Positions 7,281-14,764 are shown, counted from the stretch's first letter. The stretch: DNA of 17,915 nucleotides from an uncultured Candidatus Saccharibacteria bacterium (GCA_964559275.1 CAZLGC010000013.1:4208-22122); one strand, 5' to 3'. Notes: generated by a model not told the origin, from the letters alone. Program-made: numbers and translations.

Positions 7281-8051
7281 ATGGATTTAGATTTCACAAC
7301 CGATCGGGGAGAAAAACTTCGTGGCATCGTAGAGCTGCCAGCCACCGGAAATCCACCTTGGCCAACCGTGATTTTTTGCCATGGGTTCTTGTCAAATAAA
7401 AACAGTTCTTGTATTCCGAGTTTTAGCAATCACCTGGCTGCTGCCGGCTACGCTGTTTATCGATATGATCTACCCGGACACGGTGAATCAGGGGGAGACA
7501 AAGCGGAAGTGACTCTGCCCCGCAATTTACAGGACGTCTCAAAGGTAATAGATATTTTGAGTGCGCGGCCGGAGATGGATTCGGGGCGGATTGCTATCAC
7601 TGGTCACAGCTTTGGGGGTATGACAGCTCTGCTGTCGCCCACAGTTGACCAGCGCATAAAAACAGCAGTTAGTGTTAGCGGTGCCCTGAACTTTCGAGCT
7701 GTGGTAGATCATCTATTGGGATGCGGAAAGATGGAATGGCGGGGGGAGCATCTCTATTTTAGTGTTCTCAAGGGTCTGGCCAAACAGCGTTGTCACCAGA
7801 TACTTTACGAGTATAGTCAAAAATTCGATGTCAGGGATGAAGCTGTCAAGATAAAGATACCGGTATTGCTGATTCACGGAACCAAGGATAAGACAATTCC
7901 CTTAGCTTTGGCCCGGGAGTCTTACGAAGTCCTGCCTGGAAACGATAAAAAAATGGTTGAAATCTCTGGTGCCGGTCATATGTTTCTAAAACCCTGGCAC
8001 CAGAAAAAGATAATCAGCGAAACTAAAAATTGGCTAGCCGCAAATTTATGA
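7281..8051 (+). CDS. Alpha/beta-fold serine hydrolase
   Basis: Nucleophile elbow GHSFGG. Asp in LLIHGTKDKTIP. His in GAGHMF near the C-terminus. Oxyanion-hole HGF near the N-terminus (VIFCHGFLS). The ORF track begins at a TTG at 7269; the ATG at 7281 (MDLDF...) is preferred. The TGA stop overlaps the next ATG as ATGA. Confidence 0.75.
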   Translation: MDLDFTTDRGEKLRGIVELPATGNPPWPTVIFCHGFLSNKNSSCIPSFSNHLAAAGYAVYRYDLPGHGESGGDKAEVTLPRNLQDVSKVIDILSARPEMDSGRIAITGHSFGGMTALLSPTVDQRIKTAVSVSGALNFRAVVDHLLGCGKMEWRGEHLYFSVLKGLAKQRCHQILYEYSQKFDVRDEAVKIKIPVLLIHGTKDKTIPLALARESYEVLPGNDKKMVEISGAGHMFLKPWHQKKIISETKNWLAANL

Positions 8052-8590
8052 AAACAGAGTTTGAAGTCAGGATTTTGGATATCGATCCGGGACAAATCAA
8101 AAGAAAATTGGATGAAATAGACGCCATTCATCACGGTGATTTTCATATGCAAAGGTGTGTGTATAATATTCCCGGAAAAGAGGGGCACACTTGGATTCGC
8201 CTGCGTCATGACGGCATCAAGTCAACCCTGGCTTATAAGGAGAGAAAAGACGATGGTGTTAAAGGGGTCAGTGAGGCGGAAGTACGAGTTGATTCCTTTA
8301 ATAAAGCCAAGCAGATATTAGATAACATGAATTTGAAATTTGTCGCTTGGCAAGAGAACAAACGGGAGCAGTACCAGCTGGGGGAGATAGAATTTTCGAT
8401 TGACTACTGGCCGCTGCTGCCGCCCCATGTTGAAGTAGAAGGCCCGGATGAAGCGGCCGTCAAAAAAGGTGTGGAACTTCTGGGTTACACTATGGATCAA
8501 ACTACCACCAAGACCAAGCTAGAGCTTTACAAAGACAAAGGGATTGACCAGCATAAATATAAAAAATTAACTTTTGATGTCCAGGAATAA
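8048..8590 (+). CDS. CYTH-domain protein (triphosphate tunnel metalloenzyme / class IV adenylate cyclase-like)
   Basis: Start MKTEFEVRILDID resembles the N-terminal E-x-E-x-K/R beta-strand signature of CYTH domains. ~180-aa size is typical. Start overlaps the upstream stop (ATGA). The assignment rests on a short motif and is moderate. Confidence 0.55.
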   Translation: MKTEFEVRILDIDPGQIKRKLDEIDAIHHGDFHMQRCVYNIPGKEGHTWIRLRHDGIKSTLAYKERKDDGVKGVSEAEVRVDSFNKAKQILDNMNLKFVAWQENKREQYQLGEIEFSIDYWPLLPPHVEVEGPDEAAVKKGVELLGYTMDQTTTKTKLELYKDKGIDQHKYKKLTFDVQE

Positions 8591-9662
8591 GAAAGTTTTG
8601 GTAGCCATGTCCGGTGGCGTCGATAGCTCCGTAGCAGCGGCGCTGCTTTTGGAAAAAGGGTATGAAGTCGAAGGTATTTTTATGAAATTCTGGCAGCCGG
8701 GGATCGTTTCACCTTTACAGAAGAACAACGGTGAAAACGTCTGTTGTTCCCGGGAAAGCTGGCGCCAGGCTAAGAAAGTAGCCCGTAAACTCGGTTTCAA
8801 AATTAAGGCGGTAGATTTGTCCGCTCAGTTCAAACAACAAGTCGTTGATGAATTCCTGGGCTGGCAACGGCTGGGGTTGACGCCCAATCCCTGCATTGTC
8901 TGCAATCAAAAAATAAAATTCGGTGAATTGATGAAGCTGGCAGACCAAGCCGGAGCTGACCTGGTTGCCACCGGCCATTATGCCAGGGTAATAAATGATT
9001 CCGGAAAACTCGAGTTACGCAGGGGAAAAGATAAAAAGAAGGATCAATCGTATTTCCTATATAAATTGACCTCAGCGCAACTGGCACGGGTTGTTTTCCC
9101 GGTCGGAGAGATTCGCAAGGACGAAGTCAGATCCAGGGCCAGAAGTCTGGATTTACCGGTTGCCGATCAGAAAGAGAGCCAGGAAGTTTGTTTTATCCCC
9201 GATAATAATCAGGTCGCTTTTCTGACAAAATTTTTACGCTCAGAAATGAAGCCTGGGGATATAGTTACTACCACCGGAAAAGTTATCGGCAAACACGTGG
9301 GCTTACCGGCCTATACGATCGGGCAGCGTCGCGGAATCAAAATCGGCGGCATTGGCCCTTTCTACGTGGTGCGCAAGGATTTCGGGCAAAACAAATTGGT
9401 CGTGACCAAGGATGAGCAGAATTTAATGAGTCGAAAGCTGACTCTCTTGGATACTCACTGGATTGGTGAGGCACCGTCTTTACCAGTGAGTTGCCAAACG
9501 CAAATCAGGTATCGCTCACCGGCAACAGAGGCAGTTGTGCAGCGGGAGAAAGACGAAATTGTAGTCAAGCTAAAATCGGCTCAGCGGGCCATTACACCGG
9601 GGCAAGCGGCCGTTTTCTACGACGATGACAGGGTTCTAGGCGGCGGGGTCATCCGTAAATAA
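8577..9662 (+). CDS. mnmA: tRNA-specific 2-thiouridylase MnmA (tRNA U34 2-thiolation)
   Basis: MSRNKKVLVAMSGGVDSSVAAALL PP-loop. EGIFMKFW, TPNPCIVCNQKIKFG, ATGHYAR, DQSYFLY, and C-terminal PGQAAVFYDDDRVLGGGVI all match MnmA/TrmU along the full length. The start overlaps the CYTH gene by 14 nt. Confidence 0.9.
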   Translation: MSRNKKVLVAMSGGVDSSVAAALLLEKGYEVEGIFMKFWQPGIVSPLQKNNGENVCCSRESWRQAKKVARKLGFKIKAVDLSAQFKQQVVDEFLGWQRLGLTPNPCIVCNQKIKFGELMKLADQAGADLVATGHYARVINDSGKLELRRGKDKKKDQSYFLYKLTSAQLARVVFPVGEIRKDEVRSRARSLDLPVADQKESQEVCFIPDNNQVAFLTKFLRSEMKPGDIVTTTGKVIGKHVGLPAYTIGQRRGIKIGGIGPFYVVRKDFGQNKLVVTKDEQNLMSRKLTLLDTHWIGEAPSLPVSCQTQIRYRSPATEAVVQREKDEIVVKLKSAQRAITPGQAAVFYDDDRVLGGGVIRK

Positions 9663-9861: not shown

Positions 9862-10194
9862 ATGAATAAATACGACAATTACGGAAAACCGGAATTGGAG
9901 CAGTTGGTGGCTAAAATGGAGGACGAACTAAAGGATCTCCAGAAGGAATTTGCCAAATTTCAGGAAAGTGAGCGGGCGGAAGTTGTTAAACTGGAATTGG
10001 AAAAGTCAAAGACACCAGCCTCAGATCCGGAGTACAATGCCAGGAATGAAGCCTGGCTAAACCGTCGACAGCAGTCGGAATTGGCGATCCAACAGATGCA
10101 GCAAAAGTTGCAGGGTTTGGAGCAGGAGTATCGCTATGCCAAAGAAGCCCTGGATAGAAAGATTGCCGCCGAAGAAGAGGCTCAAAAACAGTAA
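9862..10194 (+). CDS. Coiled-coil protein 1 (110 aa, E/K/Q-rich)
   Basis: No TM and no catalytic motif. Heptad-like E/K/L/Q composition throughout. First of four consecutive coiled-coil ORFs. Confidence 0.55.
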   Translation: MNKYDNYGKPELEQLVAKMEDELKDLQKEFAKFQESERAEVVKLELEKSKTPASDPEYNARNEAWLNRRQQSELAIQQMQQKLQGLEQEYRYAKEALDRKIAAEEEAQKQ

Positions 10195-10200
10195 AGGTTT

Positions 10201-11133
10201 ATGAGTGAGGTCGAGACCGAGATGGCAAAAATGAAAAGCCTGCTTGATCAGGCTGACAAGAGCCTGCGCAGCATTGATGCGGCGGAGGATAATTTTGAGT
10301 TAAAAAGCACCGAGAAAAAAATTGAGGATAAGAAAGCTGAACTGGAAAATAAGGAAAGAAAAATCGGGGCCGGTCCGTCCGACGAGGAATCTAGCGGTCA
10401 GGATATTAATCGTCTAGAATCGAAGCAGAGTGAACAAGAAGCGGAGATAAATCGTTTACAGAGCCAGATCACGGAGTTACAGGATAAGATGGTGGAAGAC
10501 AGAACTGAGCTTACGACCAAGCAAAATGATCTGCGTGGTGAAGTTCAGAAGCTCAATACTGATGAGTCCCGTTTGGTGTCGCGGCGGCAGGCAGCCGAGA
10601 CGGCGCTGCGGCAAGCGGAAAGCGAAATAAAGTCACTCGCGCGGGAACAAGACGTGGCCGAGCGGGCAGAAAGAGCCGTACAGTCTCAGGAAAAACGGAA
10701 AGAAGAAGGGGCGGCTCTGGAAAAGAGGGTTAAGCACGAGCGTGAATTGCGGGAAGGGGCGGAAAAGAAATTACAAGAGGCGGAAAAAGCTCGCAAGGAA
10801 CTTGAGAAGAAGGCAGCGCAAAGATTGGAGGAGGCAGAAAAGGCAGCTAAAAAAGCTGATTCGTCAAAGTCCGCAGGTCAGCCAGCGGGTGAAAAAAAGG
10901 AAATGAAGCCACCTGGTTCGAAAAAGACTGCGGATGAGAAAACGTTACGTAAACGGCGCGCTCGGGGCCGCAAGAGGCTGGAGTCGCTGCAGGCAGAAGC
11001 TCACGCTGGTAGTCGGGGTAAATCCAATAAAGATCGCCGTTTGCAGCTGGAGAGCAAAAAGCAGCGCAGTGGCCTGGAGGATGACGAAAAAAAAGAGCTG
11101 GCCAAATTGAAACAGAAGAAGAAATCAAAATAA
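10201..11133 (+). CDS. Coiled-coil protein 2 (310 aa) with a basic C-terminal tail
   Basis: Long E/K/R/Q/A-rich helical composition. C-terminal ~90 aa are strongly basic (RKRRARGRKR...KLKQKKKSK). Starts 6 nt after the previous stop. Confidence 0.6.
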   Translation: MSEVETEMAKMKSLLDQADKSLRSIDAAEDNFELKSTEKKIEDKKAELENKERKIGAGPSDEESSGQDINRLESKQSEQEAEINRLQSQITELQDKMVEDRTELTTKQNDLRGEVQKLNTDESRLVSRRQAAETALRQAESEIKSLAREQDVAERAERAVQSQEKRKEEGAALEKRVKHERELREGAEKKLQEAEKARKELEKKAAQRLEEAEKAAKKADSSKSAGQPAGEKKEMKPPGSKKTADEKTLRKRRARGRKRLESLQAEAHAGSRGKSNKDRRLQLESKKQRSGLEDDEKKELAKLKQKKKSK

Positions 11134-11134
11134 T

Positions 11135-11851
11135 ATGGTGGCCGAAGATAACACCCGGAAAATTGAAGAACTTGAGCGAACTATCGAAACCAAGGAACAA
11201 GAGATTTCGACTATTGATGATGATTTAGAAAAAAATCGGCAGGAGCAGCGGGAAACCGAGCGGGAACTGCGAGAGGTGACTTCGGAAATTTCCGGCGCTA
11301 GTCAGCAGACCAAAGGGGATGTCGGCAGGCTGGAAACAGAATTAGAACGAGTTAAGGGGGAGCTGGATCGGACCAAGACCGATGTTTTCCAGGCCAAATC
11401 AGAAAAAGGCGGCGCCTATGAAGCTCGGAGCATGGATGAGGCGGAGGTTCTGTCACTGCGTAAAGAGGTTAACGCGCTGGAAGATAAGTTGAAAATGCTG
11501 GAGAACAAAGCCCGAGCTGTTTCTGCTGAAGATAAGAAAAAGTTGGCGGATGTCGAGGCGATTATTGAAAAGATGGAAAAAATAAAGGGCAATTTGCGCG
11601 CCTTGGAGATTAAGCAAAGAGGAGTTATTAGGATGGAAGAAATGAAGATGGAGCAGCAAGTGGATGAGCATCAGCGTAGCGACGACAAGCAGGATAAGAC
11701 TCGTATTGACCGCTCCAAACTAAATTTGACGACTCCTAAAAAAAGAGAAGCCGAGGGCGATATTGCGTATTTGAGGCGGGAAATGCCGGCGGTTGAAGAG
11801 GAGTTTGGTAAAATTAGAAGGACTTTTGACGATTTAGAAGAAGCTGCCTAA
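11135..11851 (+). CDS. Coiled-coil protein 3 (238 aa)
   Basis: E/K/R-rich heptad-like composition. Starts 1 nt after the previous stop. Confidence 0.6.
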   Translation: MVAEDNTRKIEELERTIETKEQEISTIDDDLEKNRQEQRETERELREVTSEISGASQQTKGDVGRLETELERVKGELDRTKTDVFQAKSEKGGAYEARSMDEAEVLSLRKEVNALEDKLKMLENKARAVSAEDKKKLADVEAIIEKMEKIKGNLRALEIKQRGVIRMEEMKMEQQVDEHQRSDDKQDKTRIDRSKLNLTTPKKREAEGDIAYLRREMPAVEEEFGKIRRTFDDLEEAA

Positions 11852-11855
11852 GCTT

Positions 11856-12431
11856 ATGGCTAATTCCAAAAAATCTGATATCAGCTCTGCCGAGCTTGAT
11901 AGTCTGGATCGCCAGGTTAAACAACTGCGCGATCGTTTGACAGACGCTGATAAGCTACTAGAGAAAATAGATATAGCGGAAGATACTAAAAGAGAGCTTG
12001 AAACCCAAGCTAGCCTGAAAACACAAGCCGCTGCAGAGCTGGGTGAATATTCTCCCGAGGCCAAAGCTCGTTTGGAAAAAGAGCTGGAAAGCCTACATCG
12101 TGATTTGGATGATGTTGACAAAGAGCTTAAGTTTTTGCCGGGAGACAAAGAGGCTATTAAAGGTCGGCGCGAGGTCTTGCAAAACGAGTTGGCGGCTCAC
12201 GAGCGCCGCTGGCGAGATTTACAGGAAAAATTGGAGATGGCCCTGGAGCGCAAGCGCAAGGCTGAGGAAGAAGCCAAGGCCGAGGAAGAAGCTAAGGCCG
12301 AGGAAGCCGAGCGCCAGCAGGAGATTGCTGATAAGGAAAAGGCGCTGCAGAATAAGCTGGATATAAGCCGGGGAAAGGGTGAGACGCCGCTGCCACCGCC
12401 AACTGATCAAACTCCACCGGCTAGTACCTAA
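11856..12431 (+). CDS. Coiled-coil protein 4 (191 aa) with a KAEEEA repeat and a Pro-rich C-terminus
   Basis: Coiled-coil composition. (KAEEEA)x3 tandem repeat. C-terminal PLPPPTDQTPPAST. Starts 4 nt after the previous stop and ends 5 nt before alaS. Confidence 0.6.
   Translation: MANSKKSDISSAELDSLDRQVKQLRDRLTDADKLLEKIDIAEDTKRELETQASLKTQAAAELGEYSPEAKARLEKELESLHRDLDDVDKELKFLPGDKEAIKGRREVLQNELAAHERRWRDLQEKLEMALERKRKAEEEAKAEEEAKAEEAERQQEIADKEKALQNKLDISRGKGETPLPPPTDQTPPAST
12258..12311 (+). repeat. Imperfect 18-bp tandem repeat x3 encoding KAEEEA-KAEEEA-KAEEAE
   Basis: AAGGCTGAGGAAGAAGCC / AAGGCCGAGGAAGAAGCT / AAGGCCGAGGAAGCCGAG, head to tail and in frame, within coiled-coil protein 4. Confidence 0.75.
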
Positions 12432-12436
12432 TTCAT

Positions 12437-14764
12437 ATGGACGCTAAAGAACTTCGTCACAAGTTCATATCTTTTTTTGAAGCCAAAGAACATAAGGTTA
12501 TTCCGTCAGCTTCACTGATCCCGGAGAATGATCCTTCGGTGCTTTTTACTACTGCTGGTATGCATCCGCTGGTTCCCTATCTCGGCGGAGAAACACATCC
12601 TGAGGGTAAACGCCTGGTTGACGTACAGAAATGCATCCGGGTTGATGACATTGATGAAGTGGGTGACACTTCTCACAATACTTTTTTTGAGATGCTTGGC
12701 AATTGGTCACTGGGCGACTATTTCAAGACTGAGGCAGTGAGCTGGAGTTATGATTTTTTGACTAACAAAAAATGGTTGGGGCTTGATCCTGGCCGTTTGT
12801 CTGTTACCTGTTTTGCTGGTGATAGTGACGCGCCTCGAGACGAAGAATCAGCCAAGCTTTGGGAGAAGGCCGGTATTCCACAGGAACGGATACACTTTTT
12901 GCCCAAATCGGAAAACTGGTGGGGTCTGGCCGGAGGGGGACCATGTGGCCCGGACACGGAAATATTTTATGACACTGATCCGGAAGGTCCCGGTTGTTGT
13001 GAGCATTGTCATCCAGGCTGCGACTGTGGCAAATATGTTGAGATTTGGAACAACGTATTCATGCAATACGACAAGCAGGCCACCGGCACCGAGGTTATGT
13101 GGCTCCGGCACGGGGAGACAGATTGGAACATCGAAAAGAAAATACAGGGCGACCTGGAGACGCAGCTAAACGAAACTGGGCGTCAGCAAGCGGCCAAGGC
13201 TAAGCAGGAAGTGAGAGATTTTTCCCCGGATATAGTATTGACTTCACCCCTAGAGCGGGCTCAGCAAACAGCGGAAATAGTCGCCCCGGAATCGGCAAAA
13301 ATTATAGCGGAGCCGCTGGCTGTTGAACGTGACATGGGTGAGCTGGAAGGAATGACGCAGCAGGAGCTGATGGACAGCTGTCCATCGGATATGTTTATAA
13401 AACGAGGTGAAATTTATTATTGCGTTACGCCGCCGGGTGGCGAGAGCCTAAATGAAGCTAAGAGTCGAACAGAGAAATTGCTTAAGAAAGTTTTGCAGGA
13501 ATACCGTGGTAAAAAAGTCCTGATCGTGTCTCATGGGGACATTATAGATATGGCGCTGGCTTGCGAGCGGGGGGTTGACCCGGAAGAGACGATCGGCACT
13601 CATGCCGAGAATCTAGCAACAACTTCCTTTGAACTTTATGATTATCTGCCGTTGAAACAGAAGAATGTCGACACCGGCATGGGCCTGGAGCGGACACTAG
13701 CGGTCATTAATAATTTAGATGATGTATACCGCACCGAACTTTTTTGGCCGCTTTTGCAGGCACTGGAAAGGCTGAGTCATAAAAAATACGGGGTGGATAA
13801 GCGAGATGATTTTGCTTTCCGGGTGATTGCAGATCATATTCGAGCAGCTACATTTATTCTGGCTGACTCGGCCCAGGTTGTTCCCTCTAATGTTGAACAA
13901 GGATACATATTGCGCCGGCTAATCCGCCGTGCGGTGCGGTTTGCCAAAAAGCTGGGAGTAGAACCGGAATTCAGTCTGGGCAAGGATTTAGCTAATGTGG
14001 TTATCAGCCAATACAGTGATACTTATCCGGAGCTGTCCGAGCATAAAGAACGAGTCATTACCGAAATAAGCAAGGAGGAAAACAAATTTGAAAAAACTCT
14101 GACCAGGGGTCTGCGCCAGTTTCAGAAAATGAAGGGGAAGGGAGTTTCCGGTAAGGAAGCCTTTGACCTTTTCCAGACTTACGGTTTTCCGATTGAAATG
14201 ACAGCGGAATTGGCTGAGGAAATGGGGGCCACGATTGATCGCCAGGAATTTGATCGGCATTTTGCTAAACACCAGGAACTCTCCCGGCAAGGTGCGACCA
14301 AAAAATTCAAAGGCGGATTAGGGGATACAACTGGCAAGACAGTTAGCTTGCACACTGCTACCCATCTCCTGCTGGCCTCATTGCGCCAGGTACTGGGCAA
14401 CCATGTTTATCAGAAAGGTAGTAATATTACTCCAGACAGGCTGAGGTTTGATTTTTCTCATTCGCAAAAACTGACTGACGATGAGAAGAAGGCGGTCGAA
14501 GACTTGGTTAATGAAAAAATCCAGGCTGACCTGTCGATAAAAACAGAAACTATGACCGTTGACGAGGCGAAGAAGCAGGGGGCAATCGGGGTTTTTGGTG
14601 AGAAATACGGAGACAAAGTCAAGGTCTATTCTGTCGGCGGTTTTTCCAAGGAAATCTGTGGTGGTCCGCATGTTGAGCGGACTGGTGAGATGGGTCACTT
14701 CCGCATCAAAAAAGAGCAGTCCTCCGGCGCCGGAGTTAGGCGCATTAAGGCGGTACTTGAATAA
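12437..14764 (+). CDS. alaS: Alanyl-tRNA synthetase, compact form without the C-Ala domain, carrying an inserted histidine-phosphatase-superfamily domain
   Basis: AlaS class II motifs FTTAGMHPLVPYLGG, FEMLGNWSLGDYFK, GGPCGPDTEIFYD, VEIWNNVFMQY, DTGMGLERTLAVI. Editing-domain zinc motifs HTATHLL and CGGPHV. Between FMQYDKQ and LPLKQKNVDTGMGLER sit ~185 aa with LRHGETDWN...GESL...VLIVSHGDIID (phosphoglycerate-mutase-like RHG / SHG histidine phosphatase signature). The protein ends shortly after the editing domain. Confidence 0.9.
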   Translation: MDAKELRHKFISFFEAKEHKVIPSASLIPENDPSVLFTTAGMHPLVPYLGGETHPEGKRLVDVQKCIRVDDIDEVGDTSHNTFFEMLGNWSLGDYFKTEAVSWSYDFLTNKKWLGLDPGRLSVTCFAGDSDAPRDEESAKLWEKAGIPQERIHFLPKSENWWGLAGGGPCGPDTEIFYDTDPEGPGCCEHCHPGCDCGKYVEIWNNVFMQYDKQATGTEVMWLRHGETDWNIEKKIQGDLETQLNETGRQQAAKAKQEVRDFSPDIVLTSPLERAQQTAEIVAPESAKIIAEPLAVERDMGELEGMTQQELMDSCPSDMFIKRGEIYYCVTPPGGESLNEAKSRTEKLLKKVLQEYRGKKVLIVSHGDIIDMALACERGVDPEETIGTHAENLATTSFELYDYLPLKQKNVDTGMGLERTLAVINNLDDVYRTELFWPLLQALERLSHKKYGVDKRDDFAFRVIADHIRAATFILADSAQVVPSNVEQGYILRRLIRRAVRFAKKLGVEPEFSLGKDLANVVISQYSDTYPELSEHKERVITEISKEENKFEKTLTRGLRQFQKMKGKGVSGKEAFDLFQTYGFPIEMTAELAEEMGATIDRQEFDRHFAKHQELSRQGATKKFKGGLGDTTGKTVSLHTATHLLLASLRQVLGNHVYQKGSNITPDRLRFDFSHSQKLTDDEKKAVEDLVNEKIQADLSIKTETMTVDEAKKQGAIGVFGEKYGDKVKVYSVGGFSKEICGGPHVERTGEMGHFRIKKEQSSGAGVRRIKAVLE

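What the first reader, a model, noticed from the sequence alone, without database searches (positions are those of the whole stretch)
13094..13646. Alanyl-tRNA synthetase with a complete histidine-phosphatase (PGM-like) domain inserted into its catalytic core
In canonical AlaS the sequence runs EIWN-VFMQ(F/Y)..[short loop]..LP-K--DTGMGLER. Here ~185 aa are inserted in frame in that loop. They begin LRHGETDWN and end VLIVSHGDIIDMALA, which are the RHG His-nucleophile motif and the second catalytic His (SHG) of the histidine phosphatase superfamily (cofactor-dependent PGM / SixA / CobC / PhoE branch). A GESL-type segment lies in between, so the phosphatase looks catalytically intact. No intein hallmarks are present: no Cys/Ser at the N-terminal junction and no HN plus Cys/Ser/Thr at the C-terminal junction. 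A phosphatase embedded in an aaRS active-site domain is an unusual architecture. It could act on the tRNA 3' end, on Ala-AMP or a nucleotide by-product, or be regulatory.
Basis: partly seen in the sequence, partly recalled or inferred. Interest (0 to 1): 0.78.

Follow-up and report, generated by a model that had tools for sequence, protein, structure and literature searches.

The report
Phosphatase domain built into alanyl-tRNA synthetase
The enzyme that loads alanine onto tRNA in this uncultivated small-genome (CPR-type) bacterium carries a complete, apparently active phosphatase enzyme spliced into the middle of its catalytic core, and the same kind of phosphatase turns out to be embedded in valine and isoleucine tRNA synthetases of related bacteria, a recurring design that I found described in no paper and whose purpose is unknown.

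Summary
ORF 12437-14764 (+) is a short-type AlaRS of 775 aa (NF002436, 875 bits). A 184-aa histidine phosphatase domain (HP, PF00300, E 1.5e-42) sits in frame at aa 219-402 (nt 13091-13642). It lies at the tip of the beta-hairpin between the EIWN..FMQ strand and motif 3.

It is not an assembly artefact. The same fusion occurs in 10 protein clusters (59-75% identity), in independent assemblies that include a closed 1.14-Mb chromosome, at the ancestral mnmA-alaS locus.

HP catalytic residues R224, H225, R274, E297 and H366 are invariant. The insert is under purifying selection (dN/dS about 0.07 or less). The AlaRS active-site and editing motifs are intact.

An exhaustive search of 1.84 billion representative proteins found one AlaRS::HP clade. 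It also showed that every other large multidomain relative is a class I aaRS. HP is embedded in ValRS and, in tandem, in IleRS of several CPR lineages. One ValRS insert has a free-standing 61%-identical ortholog at a syntenic locus.

The substrate is unknown. My best guess (about 0.3) is a cis-tethered phosphomonoesterase acting on a phosphorylated tRNA 3' end. The main rival is an autonomous small-molecule phosphatase. I found no paper describing this.

The parts
12437..14764 (+). alaS::HP gene: a short-type alanyl-tRNA synthetase (775 aa, no C-Ala domain) with an embedded histidine phosphatase
   Evidence: ORF. Pfam gives tRNA-synt_2c + His_Phos_1 + tRNA_SAD. NCBIfam NF002436 scores 875 bits against a cut-off of 529.
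12437..13090 (+). AlaRS catalytic core, N-terminal part (aa 1-218). It includes motif-2-region R68, W161/W162, and the EIWN205-N-V207-FMQ strand.
   Evidence: Pfam stretch aa 5-219 matches profile positions 1-214. Aligns to A. aeolicus AlaRS 1RIQ residues 4-207. These residues are invariant across AlaRS with and without the insert.
12992..13036 (+). Cys-rich segment GCCEHCHPGCDCGKY, immediately before the hairpin strand. Possibly a metal knuckle.
   Evidence: Sequence. Shared by all insert-bearing AlaRS and by some insert-less ones (P0041, P0084), but not by P0011-P0014.
13091..13642 (+). Inserted histidine phosphatase domain (aa 219-402, 184 aa)
   Evidence: PF00300 E 1.5e-42. Boundaries come from the alignment with insert-less AlaRS. 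pLDDT is above 90 over most of the domain. Foldseek TM about 0.8 to PspA-type phosphoserine phosphatases 4IJ5 and 5ZR2.
13106..13114 (+). R224-H225-G226: the RHG motif carrying the phospho-accepting histidine
   Evidence: Position. R and H are invariant in all 10 AlaRS inserts and in 19 aaRS-embedded HP copies.
13256..13258 (+). R274 (SPLERA), the second phosphate-binding arginine
   Evidence: Invariant.
13325..13327 (+). E297 (VERDMG), the predicted general acid, equivalent to dPGM E89
   Evidence: Invariant. The equivalence to dPGM E89 is from my knowledge of the superfamily.
13430..13447 (+). PPGGES (aa 332-337), a substrate-cap motif typical of PhoE/CobC-like members
   Evidence: P114, P115, G117 and E118 are invariant in the clade. 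Coordinates.
13529..13537 (+). S365-H366-G367, the second catalytic histidine
   Evidence: H is invariant.
13643..14302 (+). AlaRS catalytic core, C-terminal part (motif 3 DTGMGLER, aa 412-419, nt 13670-13693) plus the helical tRNA-recognition region
   Evidence: Aligns to 1RIQ residues 210-427. D412, G414, E418 and R419 are invariant.
14303..14761 (+). AlaRS editing domain, with the HxxxH (H639, H643) and CxxxH (C741, H745) motifs
   Evidence: tRNA_SAD E 1.9e-15. The motifs are invariant. Foldseek matches to AlaX 1V7O and 1WNU.
8574..9662 (+). mnmA (tRNA 2-thiouridylase), a conserved upstream synteny anchor. It shows that alaS::HP occupies the ancestral alaS locus.
   Evidence: Pfam. mnmA lies upstream of alaS both in insert-bearing loci and in insert-less loci L094 and L095.

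Best explanation
Shown: the gene is the organism's housekeeping AlaRS. A complete PhoE/CobC/PspA-like histidine phosphatase has been grafted in frame onto the tip of a catalytic-core beta-hairpin. That hairpin corresponds to A. aeolicus AlaRS residues 207|210, between the EIWN-x-V-FMQ strand and the motif-3 strand. All sequence determinants of both enzymes are retained. The fusion has been kept under purifying selection across a deep CPR clade. It is one case of a recurrent, apparently CPR-specific design in which such phosphatases (single, or in tandem copies) sit inside the catalytic domains of AlaRS, ValRS and IleRS.

Inferred mechanism: His225 takes a phosphoryl group from a phosphomonoester, with R224 and R274 binding the phosphate and E297 acting as the acid, and the phospho-histidine is then hydrolysed. 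Because the module is tethered next to the aminoacylation site, I think its substrate is something the synthetase itself binds. The most likely candidate is a tRNA(Ala) whose 3'-terminal ribose carries a blocking 2'/3'-phosphate or pyrophosphate. On this view the phosphatase 'heals' the CCA end in cis before charging. This would be analogous to the way inserted editing modules (class I CP1, ProRS INS) act on the same flexible 3' end.

The anatomy and evolutionary statements are near certain. The tRNA-end substrate is a hypothesis, at about 0.3.
For: Anatomy.

Real and old:
- 10 clusters share the fusion at the same site, at 59-75% overall identity and 43-68% identity within the insert.
- It is present in the closed 1,136,458-bp record OZ246404.1 and in many Logan, ENA and JGI assemblies.
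- Neighbouring orthologs are only 48-54% (MnmA) to 76-79% (FtsA) identical across the clade.

Selection:
- R224, H225, R274, E297 and H366 are invariant.
- Between L081 and L087, insert dN is 0.18 with dS saturated at about 2.5. The host parts have dN 0.10-0.13.

Host intact:
- AlaRS pocket and editing residues are invariant.
- The alaS position downstream of mnmA is the same as in insert-less relatives.

Coupling to synthetases:
- In an exhaustive search, 12 of the 12 hits longer than 550 aa among the best 150 representatives are aaRS. One is AlaRS and 11 are class I ValRS or IleRS.
- Five of 8 CPR loci carry HP inside ValRS or IleRS, against 0 of 72 non-CPR loci.
- All the fusions are internal insertions in catalytic domains, not terminal fusions.
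- ValRS and IleRS use a homologous site, a zinc-knuckle loop at T. thermophilus ValRS residues 425-435.

Tether: AF2 runs host strands 200-217 and 403-416 straight into the first and last HP strands, with no linker.

Precedent for blocked CCA ends: toxSAS enzymes pyrophosphorylate the tRNA 3' end to stop aminoacylation, with tRNA specificity (PMC11559606; bioRxiv 10.1101/2021.04.30.441581).
Against: - No substrate was tested, and none can be tested in silico here.
- No member of the histidine phosphatase superfamily acting on tRNA ends turned up in the held literature.
- The inserts are sequence-generic. A profile built from 19 embedded copies hits ordinary free-standing PhoE/CobC-like proteins at 165-215 bits.
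- The ValRS insert of P0402 has a free-standing 61%-identical ortholog (P0266) at a syntenic locus, so embedding is not obligatory.
- Insert surface charge ranges from -14 to +6 and is strongly acidic in this window's protein. That does not suggest an RNA-binding surface.
- Both insertion sites are hairpin tips, which are structurally permissive anyway.
- Junction pLDDT is only 59-79 and no coordinates were available. Whether the HP active site faces the acceptor-end path is unknown.
Confidence: 0.3

Rival explanations
1. Autonomous small-molecule phosphatase. On this view the insert is an ordinary broad-specificity, metabolic or salvage phosphatase (for example acting on phosphoserine, sugar phosphates or nucleotides). 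It merely uses a permissive surface hairpin of an essential, constitutively expressed protein as a scaffold. Its chemistry has nothing to do with aminoacylation.
For: - The best sequence and structure matches are PspA-type phosphoserine phosphatases, PhoE, TIGAR, GpgP and CobC.
- A profile built from embedded copies is indistinguishable from free-standing family members.
- A free-standing ortholog exists at a syntenic locus.
- Surface charge is acidic and variable.
- Insertion sites are hairpin or zinc-knuckle tips.
- N and C termini of the fold are adjacent, which makes it easy to insert.
Against: - Partner specificity: every non-HP partner among the closest relatives is a synthetase (12 of 12). 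These represent at least three independent events: AlaRS, ValRS and IleRS.
- All events are internal insertions in catalytic domains, whereas hitch-hiking would be expected to favour terminal fusions.
- The fusion has been retained across deep divergence.
Confidence: 0.25
2. Nucleotide or adenylate-related helper. On this view the phosphatase acts on a small phosphorylated product or side-product of the synthetase reaction, such as AMP or another nucleotide, or conceivably PPi. The effect would be to pull the reaction forward or to feed nucleoside salvage.
For: - The top NCBIfam similarity is to alpha-ribazole-5'-phosphate phosphatase CobC, whose substrate is nucleotide-like (108 bits, below the cut-off of 162.9).
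- CPR bacteria are not expected to make cobalamin (my knowledge).
- The module is tethered next to an AMP- and PPi-producing site.
Against: - Dephosphorylating AMP would be wasteful.
- Branch-1 histidine phosphatases are not known pyrophosphatases (my knowledge).
- This reading gives no reason why only Ala, Val and Ile enzymes carry the module.
- A free-standing ortholog exists.
Confidence: 0.15
3. Protein phosphatase or regulatory module. On this view the insert removes an inhibitory phosphate from the synthetase itself or from a partner protein. For example it could counter Hip-type kinase toxins, which inactivate synthetases by phosphorylation.
For: - HipA-family kinases phosphorylate GltX, TrpS and LysS, and different kinases target different synthetases (PMC6581861, PMC8262856, PMC7029023).
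- The superfamily includes protein phosphatases: SixA, PGAM5 and Sts-1 (my knowledge).
Against: - No Ala, Val or Ile synthetase is a known Hip target.
- The similarity to SixA is marginal (24.9 bits against a cut-off of 74.5).
- A linker-less stalk would hinder reach to the enzyme's own active site.
Confidence: 0.08
4. Artefact, or a selfish or degenerate element: an assembly chimera, an intein-like mobile insertion, or a decaying remnant without function.
For: None found. The only point in its favour is that such insertions are rare in AlaRS.
Against: - Independent assemblies carry it, including a closed chromosome.
- There is no GC step across the insert.
- There are no flanking repeats.
- There is no Hint domain and there are no splice-junction residues.
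- The catalytic residues are invariant and dN is much lower than dS.
Confidence: 0.01

Closest known systems
Inserted cis-editing modules of synthetases (class I CP1 in IleRS/ValRS/LeuRS; INS domain of bacterial ProRS, between motifs 2 and 3)
   Same: A whole catalytic domain of about 180 aa is inserted in a loop of the aminoacylation domain. It acts, or here is proposed to act, on the flexible tRNA 3' end. Free-standing homologs also exist (YbaK and AlaX for editing; P0266 here).
   Different: The fold and the chemistry are unrelated. The editing modules are ester hydrolases acting on aminoacyl-tRNA, whereas this is a phospho-histidine phosphatase. The action on tRNA is unproven here. The comparison rests on my knowledge of those systems.
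Other enzyme or domain insertions in synthetase cores (GAD domain in bacterial AspRS; NCBIfam NF040702 'isoleucine--tRNA ligase, N-acetyltransferase domain-containing')
   Same: They are lineage-specific whole-domain insertions in a synthetase catalytic domain. NF040702 appears among the IleRS hits, which shows that an embedded enzyme domain in IleRS is already curated.
   Different: The inserted families differ (GNAT, GAD). No NCBIfam model in the hit lists describes a synthetase with a histidine phosphatase insert.
PhoE / CobC / PspA-type broad-specificity histidine phosphatases (PDB 1EBB, 1H2E, 4IJ5, 5ZR2, 6NRU)
   Same: The fold and the catalytic pentad R-H-R-E-H are the same, as are the PxGES cap motif and the small size without a dPGM C-terminal tail.
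   Different: Those are free-standing proteins of about 200 aa. The insert scores below the curated cut-off of every equivalog model, so its substrate cannot be transferred from them.
Bifunctional RNase H / acid phosphatase (Rv2228c type, NF005567)
   Same: A nucleic-acid enzyme is fused to a CobC-like histidine phosphatase. It is the second-best NCBIfam similarity (101-102 bits).
   Different: That is an end-to-end fusion, not an internal insertion. The score is far below its cut-off of 326.
Enzymes that unblock tRNA 3' ends (small alarmone hydrolases reversing toxSAS pyrophosphorylation; HD-domain phosphatase of E. coli CCA-adding enzyme)
   Same: They perform the function proposed here: removal of phosphate groups that prevent aminoacylation (for toxSAS; the CCA-enzyme HD activity is from my knowledge).
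   Different: The folds differ (HD superfamily). They act in trans. No link to the present domain has been demonstrated.

Membership tests
Alanyl-tRNA synthetase (class IIc; short form NF002436) | Class II AlaRS catalytic domain (tRNA-synt_2c) scoring above the curated cut-off | tested here: met
   PF01411 E 1.8e-134. NF002436 scores 875 bits against 529, and TIGR00344 scores 607 against 457. Foldseek TM 0.80-0.85 to 1RIQ, 3HXU and 9JDN.
Alanyl-tRNA synthetase (class IIc; short form NF002436) | Alanine/adenylate pocket residues: R68, N205, V207, D412 and G414, which correspond to E. coli R69, N212, V214, D235 and G237 | tested here: met
   All are invariant in the alignment of AlaRS with and without the insert. 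Positions are verified. The E. coli equivalences are from my knowledge.
Alanyl-tRNA synthetase (class IIc; short form NF002436) | Editing domain with the HxxxH and CxxxH zinc motifs | tested here: met
   tRNA_SAD E 1.9e-15. H639, H643, C741 and H745 are invariant.
Alanyl-tRNA synthetase (class IIc; short form NF002436) | Alanylation of tRNA(Ala) (G3:U70) in vitro or in vivo | not testable with these tools
   No tRNA gene lies in the window. This needs biochemistry.
Histidine phosphatase superfamily, branch 1 (PF00300) | Domain match above the gathering score, covering the whole fold | tested here: met
   145.9 bits against a cut-off of 21.7, covering profile positions 4-184 of 194. pLDDT above 90. 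TM about 0.8 to 4IJ5 and 5ZR2.
Histidine phosphatase superfamily, branch 1 (PF00300) | Catalytic core: RHG His nucleophile, two Arg, Glu acid and a second His | tested here: met
   R224, H225, R274, E297 and H366 are present. They are invariant in 10 orthologs and in 19 synthetase-embedded copies.
Histidine phosphatase superfamily, branch 1 (PF00300) | Phosphomonoesterase activity | not testable with these tools
   Needs an enzyme assay.
Cofactor-dependent phosphoglycerate mutase (dPGM) | Scores above the dPGM model cut-offs | tested here: not met
   TIGR01258 scores 43.8-48.6 against a cut-off of 81.7. All PRK dPGM equivalogs score 24-68 bits against cut-offs of 225-421. The matches cover only the N-terminal half.
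Alpha-ribazole phosphatase CobC / phosphoserine phosphatase PspA / SixA | Scores above the equivalog cut-off | tested here: not met
   TIGR03162 scores 103.6-108.1 against 162.9. NF045917 scores 78-81.5 against 350. TIGR00249 scores 24.9-28.9 against 74.5.
Intein | Hint domain; Cys/Ser at the N-terminal junction; His-Asn followed by Cys/Ser/Thr at the C-terminal junction | tested here: not met
   No Hint or intein Pfam hit. The junctions read T218|E219 and D402|Y403.

The most novel reading that the evidence does not exclude
Histidine phosphatase modules embedded in the catalytic cores of AlaRS, ValRS and IleRS of CPR bacteria could be a previously unrecognised class of cis-acting tRNA 3'-end 'healing' domains. 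On this reading they strip 2'/3'-phosphate or pyrophosphate groups from the CCA end of the cognate tRNA while it is bound, so that it can be charged. Such groups could be installed by toxSAS-type toxins, or left by nucleases. The modules would then act as built-in immunity against tRNA-end-blocking toxins, and would be a third kind of active site in synthetases, beside synthesis and editing.
Probability: 0.22. Interest if true: 0.9.

Novelty: new variant of a known kind. Interest (0 to 1): 0.7.

Why it matters
Synthetases are among the best-studied enzymes. Their known extra active sites are all for editing. Here a second, unrelated catalytic centre, a phospho-histidine phosphatase, is kept intact inside the aminoacylation domain, and it recurs in three different synthetases of both structural classes within one radiation of tiny-genome bacteria. 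That points to selective pressure at the synthetase/tRNA interface that has not been described.

If the substrate is a blocked tRNA end, this would be a new tRNA-repair and anti-toxin strategy, and a new principle for how synthetases gain function.

If instead it is an unrelated metabolic phosphatase, it is still a clear natural example of enzyme-in-enzyme domain insertion at beta-hairpin or zinc-knuckle tips. That would be useful for protein engineering and for annotating CPR genomes, where one of these proteins is labelled 'hypothetical protein' and one IleRS::HP gene is deposited as two partial proteins.

The question can be tested directly with recombinant protein.

Tried and rejected
1. 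Assembly chimera: rejected. The fusion appears in independent assemblies and a closed chromosome, and there is no GC step.

2. Intein or mobile cassette: rejected. There is no Hint domain, the junction residues are wrong, and there are only chance-level flanking repeats.

3. Functional link to the downstream PHP-domain gene: rejected as a requirement. PHP follows alaS::HP in the window and in L081, L087 and L096. In the most divergent member, L097, ftsA follows directly. PHP is also absent next to insert-less alaS.

4. Origin of the insert by phylogeny: unresolved. The neighbour-joining tree of 201 HP domains is unresolved at this depth. The AlaRS clade was recovered in only 18 of 100 bootstraps, and the commonest sister (5 of those 18) was ValRS P0273/P0402 plus P0266. 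Profile score ranks the ValRS P0273/P0402 insert first (163 bits), only marginally above free-standing P0266 (159 bits). No firm origin is claimed.

It returned no AlaRS::HP genome, only relatives at 44% identity or less, so taxonomy could not be read from record titles.

6. Exact look-ups of neighbouring ribosomal proteins returned no source names. The only names available are 'Patescibacteria group bacterium' for the closest insert-less AlaRS and 'uncultured bacterium ACD_63'.

7. The third homolog search, with a profile of embedded copies, returned only generic free-standing phosphatases. The single-sequence insert search did not even list the fusion proteins. That word-indexed tool is therefore unsuitable for counting fusions.

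8. dN/dS on near-identical pairs (window/L086, L087/L089) was uninformative because there were too few substitutions. Only the 80%-identity pair was usable, and its dS is saturated.

9. An AF2 model of the aa 1-470 fragment did not sharpen the inter-domain confidence (pTM 0.68). No coordinates are returned, so the distance between the two active sites could not be measured.

10. The afdb50 fold library was unavailable.

11. Literature searches for a synthetase combined with a histidine phosphatase or PGM domain found nothing relevant.
Full report
**What is there**

The window's largest gene after the vault-like ORF is 12437-14764 (+), encoding 775 aa. Three lines of evidence define its architecture.
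- Pfam finds the class II AlaRS catalytic family tRNA-synt_2c (E 1.8e-134) in two pieces. His_Phos_1 (PF00300, E 1.5e-42, profile positions 4-184 of 194) lies between them at aa 223-403. The AlaRS/ThrRS editing-domain signature tRNA_SAD is at the C terminus.
- The NCBIfam model for the short AlaRS form without a C-Ala domain (NF002436, 595 positions) scores 875 bits against a cut-off of 529. It aligns as profile ~1-216 then 217-593, with about 184 extra residues in between.
- Alignment with insert-less relatives sets the boundaries at aa 219-402, which is nt 13091-13642.

The insert contains R224-H225-G226, R274 (SPLERA), E297 (VERDMG), PPGGES (332-337) and S365-H366-G367.

**Artefact and chance**

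Base composition is continuous across the insert. There are no meaningful flanking repeats. There is no intein domain and there are no intein junction residues.

The same architecture, at the same site, is found in ten 90%-identity clusters, P0001-P0010. These are 59-75% identical overall and 43-68% identical within the insert. They come from independent assemblies:
- NCBI, including the closed 1,136,458-bp record OZ246404.1;
- ENA and JGI metagenomes;
- Logan assemblies; P0005 alone is on at least 24 contigs across ENA and Logan assemblies.

Gene order around the fusion is conserved: sortase, hydrolase, mnmA, several coiled-coil ORFs, alaS::HP, (PHP), ftsA. In insert-less relatives mnmA also lies upstream of alaS. 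The fusion therefore occupies the ancestral alaS locus and is very probably the housekeeping copy.

Across the clade MnmA orthologs are only 48-54% identical, so the fusion is old.

**Are both enzymes intact?**

AlaRS: residues that form the alanine/adenylate pocket (R68, N205, V207, D412, G414) and the editing-site HxxxH and CxxxH motifs are invariant in proteins with and without the insert. The AF2 model of the synthetase part superposes on AlaRS catalytic fragments with TM 0.80-0.85.

Phosphatase:
- The five catalytic residues are invariant in all ten orthologs.
- For the one usable pair (L081 against L087, 80% aa identity), insert dN is 0.18 with dS saturated at about 2.5. dN/dS is therefore about 0.07 or less. 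The host segments have dN 0.10-0.13.
- The insert has pLDDT above 90.
- It matches PspA-type phosphoserine phosphatases (4IJ5/6, 5ZR2), GpgP, TIGAR and PhoE with TM about 0.75-0.8.
- It falls below the curated cut-off of every specific NCBIfam model (dPGM, CobC, PspA, GpmB, SixA).

It is thus a PhoE/CobC/PspA-like phosphatase of unknown specificity, and it is not a phosphoglycerate mutase.

**Where it sits**

Against A. aeolicus AlaRS (1RIQ), the host sequence aligns up to G207 and resumes at T210. This is the turn of the beta-hairpin whose first strand carries the EIWN-x-V pocket residues and whose second strand leads into motif 3 (DTGMGLER).

AF2 predicts that the two host strands (200-217 and 403-416) continue without a break into the first and last strands of the phosphatase (DSSP strands 200-224 and 395-416). 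This gives a linker-less two-stranded stalk, in both the full-length and the aa 1-470 models. The pLDDT in the connecting segments is only 59-79, and no coordinates were available. The relative orientation of the two active sites is therefore not established.

**The wider pattern (the main new result)**

I ran an exhaustive HMMER search of 1.84 billion representative proteins, using the insert plus 20-25 flanking AlaRS residues on each side as the query.
- It found a single representative (P0004) that spans both junctions, which means there is one AlaRS::HP clade.
- Every other hit longer than 550 aa among the best 150 is a class I synthetase with His_Phos_1 nested inside tRNA-synt_1. These are P0247, P0250, P0251, P0257, P0259, P0260, P0262, P0264, P0273, P0298 and P0305.

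Among genome loci recovered with the insert profile, further examples appear:
- ValRS::HP in Sungiibacteriota (L015), Saccharibacteria (L026) and Paceibacteria (L005);
- IleRS with two tandem HP domains in Peregrinibacteria (L041) and Peribacteria (L046).

Named members are annotated only as 'class I tRNA ligase family protein', or are split into partial proteins.

Of 8 CPR loci in that set, 5 are synthetase-embedded and 3 are free-standing. None of the 72 non-CPR loci is embedded.

In ValRS the insert lies between T. thermophilus residues 425 and 435, inside a CxxC...CxxC zinc knuckle. The IleRS tandem insert is at the homologous position. All 19 embedded copies I aligned keep R, H, R, E and H. 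The remaining multidomain relatives are tandem HP-HP proteins of about 400-450 aa.

**Embedded and free forms**

The AlaRS insert shares an 'SHGDxxDM' and 'Y[WC]..P' signature with the ValRS insert of P0402/P0273 and with the 201-aa free-standing protein P0266.

P0266 is 61% identical to the P0402 insert. It lies next to a DHH-family gene that is itself 61% identical to the neighbour of P0402. The same phosphatase therefore exists either free or embedded at a syntenic locus in related genomes.

P0402 also has a weak ASCH-like segment (E 8e-4, just under the Pfam cut-off) immediately N-terminal to its HP.

A neighbour-joining phylogeny was unresolved. By profile score the ValRS P0273/P0402 insert is the nearest relative of the AlaRS insert, but only marginally ahead of free-standing proteins.

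**Mechanism**

Shown: the fold, the catalytic residues, the selection, the intact host, and the recurrent embedding that is specific to synthetases.

Inferred: the standard superfamily chemistry, in which His225 is phosphorylated, E297 acts as the acid, and R224 and R274 bind the phosphate.

The substrate is open. The argument for a link to aminoacylation has three parts:
- at least three independent events all landed in synthetases (AlaRS; ValRS and IleRS);
- all are internal insertions in catalytic domains rather than terminal fusions;
- they have been retained across deep divergence.

Among linked substrates I favour, at about 0.3, a phosphorylated tRNA 3' end.
- It is the one ligand common to class I and class II enzymes that is flexible enough to reach an inserted module, as it does for CP1 and INS editing domains.
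- Blocking the CCA end with pyrophosphate is a documented toxin strategy with tRNA specificity (PMC11559606; bioRxiv 10.1101/2021.04.30.441581).

Evidence against this choice:
- I found no histidine phosphatase known to act on tRNA ends.
- The inserts are sequence-generic.
- A free-standing ortholog exists.
- The insert surface is acidic or variable in charge.
- Both insertion sites are structurally permissive tips.

Rival explanations and their estimated likelihoods:
- an autonomous small-molecule phosphatase using the synthetase as a scaffold (about 0.25);
- a helper acting on nucleotides or reaction by-products (about 0.15);
- a protein phosphatase countering Hip-type kinases, which do target synthetases (about 0.08);
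- an artefact or selfish element (about 0.01).

**Comparison with the known, and novelty**

The protein is a member of the AlaRS family and of histidine phosphatase branch 1. Both memberships were tested and met. It is not a member of dPGM, CobC, PspA, SixA or the inteins. Each of those was tested and not met.

It resembles inserted editing modules and other synthetase insertions such as the AspRS GAD domain and the curated 'IleRS with GNAT' family seen. The resemblance is in design, not in fold or chemistry.

Searches of the held literature found no description of a synthetase carrying a histidine phosphatase. The sequences are public, with Pfam domains precomputed, but are unnamed or labelled 'hypothetical'.

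I rate it a new variant of a known kind, with interest 0.7. It is a real, conserved and recurrent architecture that a synthetase specialist would find surprising and that can be tested directly, but its function is not yet known.

Noticed in passing
window 3615-6470 (+): A 951-aa ORF with MVP_shoulder (E 1.4e-18) and Vault_3 domains, which makes it a major-vault-protein-like protein in a small-genome bacterium. The region is distinctly GC-richer (0.57-0.59) than the rest of the window (about 0.44-0.50), which suggests foreign origin. No NCBIfam hit.
   Followed up: partly
window 9862-12431 (+): Four consecutive E/K/R-rich, coiled-coil-like ORFs (110, 310, 238 and 191 aa) lie between mnmA and alaS. 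The one scanned (10201-11133) has no Pfam match. Three to four Pfam-less ORFs lie between mnmA and alaS in every member of the AlaRS::HP clade.
   Followed up: partly
window 14808-15515 (+): A PHP-domain metallo-phosphoesterase (235 aa) with weak similarity to the CehA/McbA, 3',5'-bisphosphate phosphatase and RNase RNM families. It lies immediately downstream of alaS::HP in the window and in L081, L087 and L096. It is absent there in L097 and next to insert-less alaS.
   Followed up: yes
window 12992-13036 (+), AlaRS aa 186-200: A Cys-rich motif GCCEHCHPGCDCGKY lies just before the hairpin that carries the insert. It is also present in some insert-less short AlaRS (P0041, P0084) but is replaced by non-Cys residues in P0011-P0014. 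Possibly a metal knuckle.
   Followed up: no
L093 5064-8723 (P0402) and L090 6001-6606 (P0266): A ValRS carries an ASCH-like segment (weak, E 8e-4) plus a histidine phosphatase inserted in its zinc knuckle. A related genome has the 61%-identical phosphatase as a free 201-aa gene beside the orthologous DHH gene (NrnA-like, weak). Either an insert was released or a free gene was captured.
   Followed up: partly
L041 7751-12145 and L046 7733-12148: IleRS (type with a DUF5915 C-terminal domain) of Peregrinibacteria and Peribacteria carries two tandem, catalytically intact histidine phosphatase domains, about 400 aa in all, at the site homologous to the ValRS insertion. P0247 has at least three copies (three aligned as separate domains; Pfam and the representative search each count four stretches). 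GenBank records of one such gene are split into 'hypothetical protein, partial' and 'isoleucine--tRNA ligase, partial'.
   Followed up: partly
L087 1914-3173: In a genome of the AlaRS::HP clade the histidyl-tRNA synthetase is called as two adjacent ORFs (119 and 256 aa, both tRNA-synt_His). This could be a split gene, a frameshift or a pseudogene.
   Followed up: no
L087 13308-18326: Between alaS::HP-PHP and ftsA this genome has acquired a block containing a CYTH gene, an MvaI/BcnI-type restriction enzyme, an N6/N4 methyltransferase and a zeta-toxin-family kinase. The block is absent from the window and from L096.
   Followed up: no
window 7-3098 (+): A 440-aa ORF without a Pfam hit is followed by a TrwB/HerA-like ATPase (588 aa) with a long low-complexity K/P/Q/G-rich tail. 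Its ortholog in L096 is annotated DUF8128. The pair is conserved in L096 at 63-66% identity.
   Followed up: no
window 8030-8590 (+): A CYTH-domain protein (class IV adenylate cyclase / triphosphate-tunnel family, below cut-off). Its start overlaps the upstream hydrolase gene and its end overlaps mnmA.
   Followed up: no
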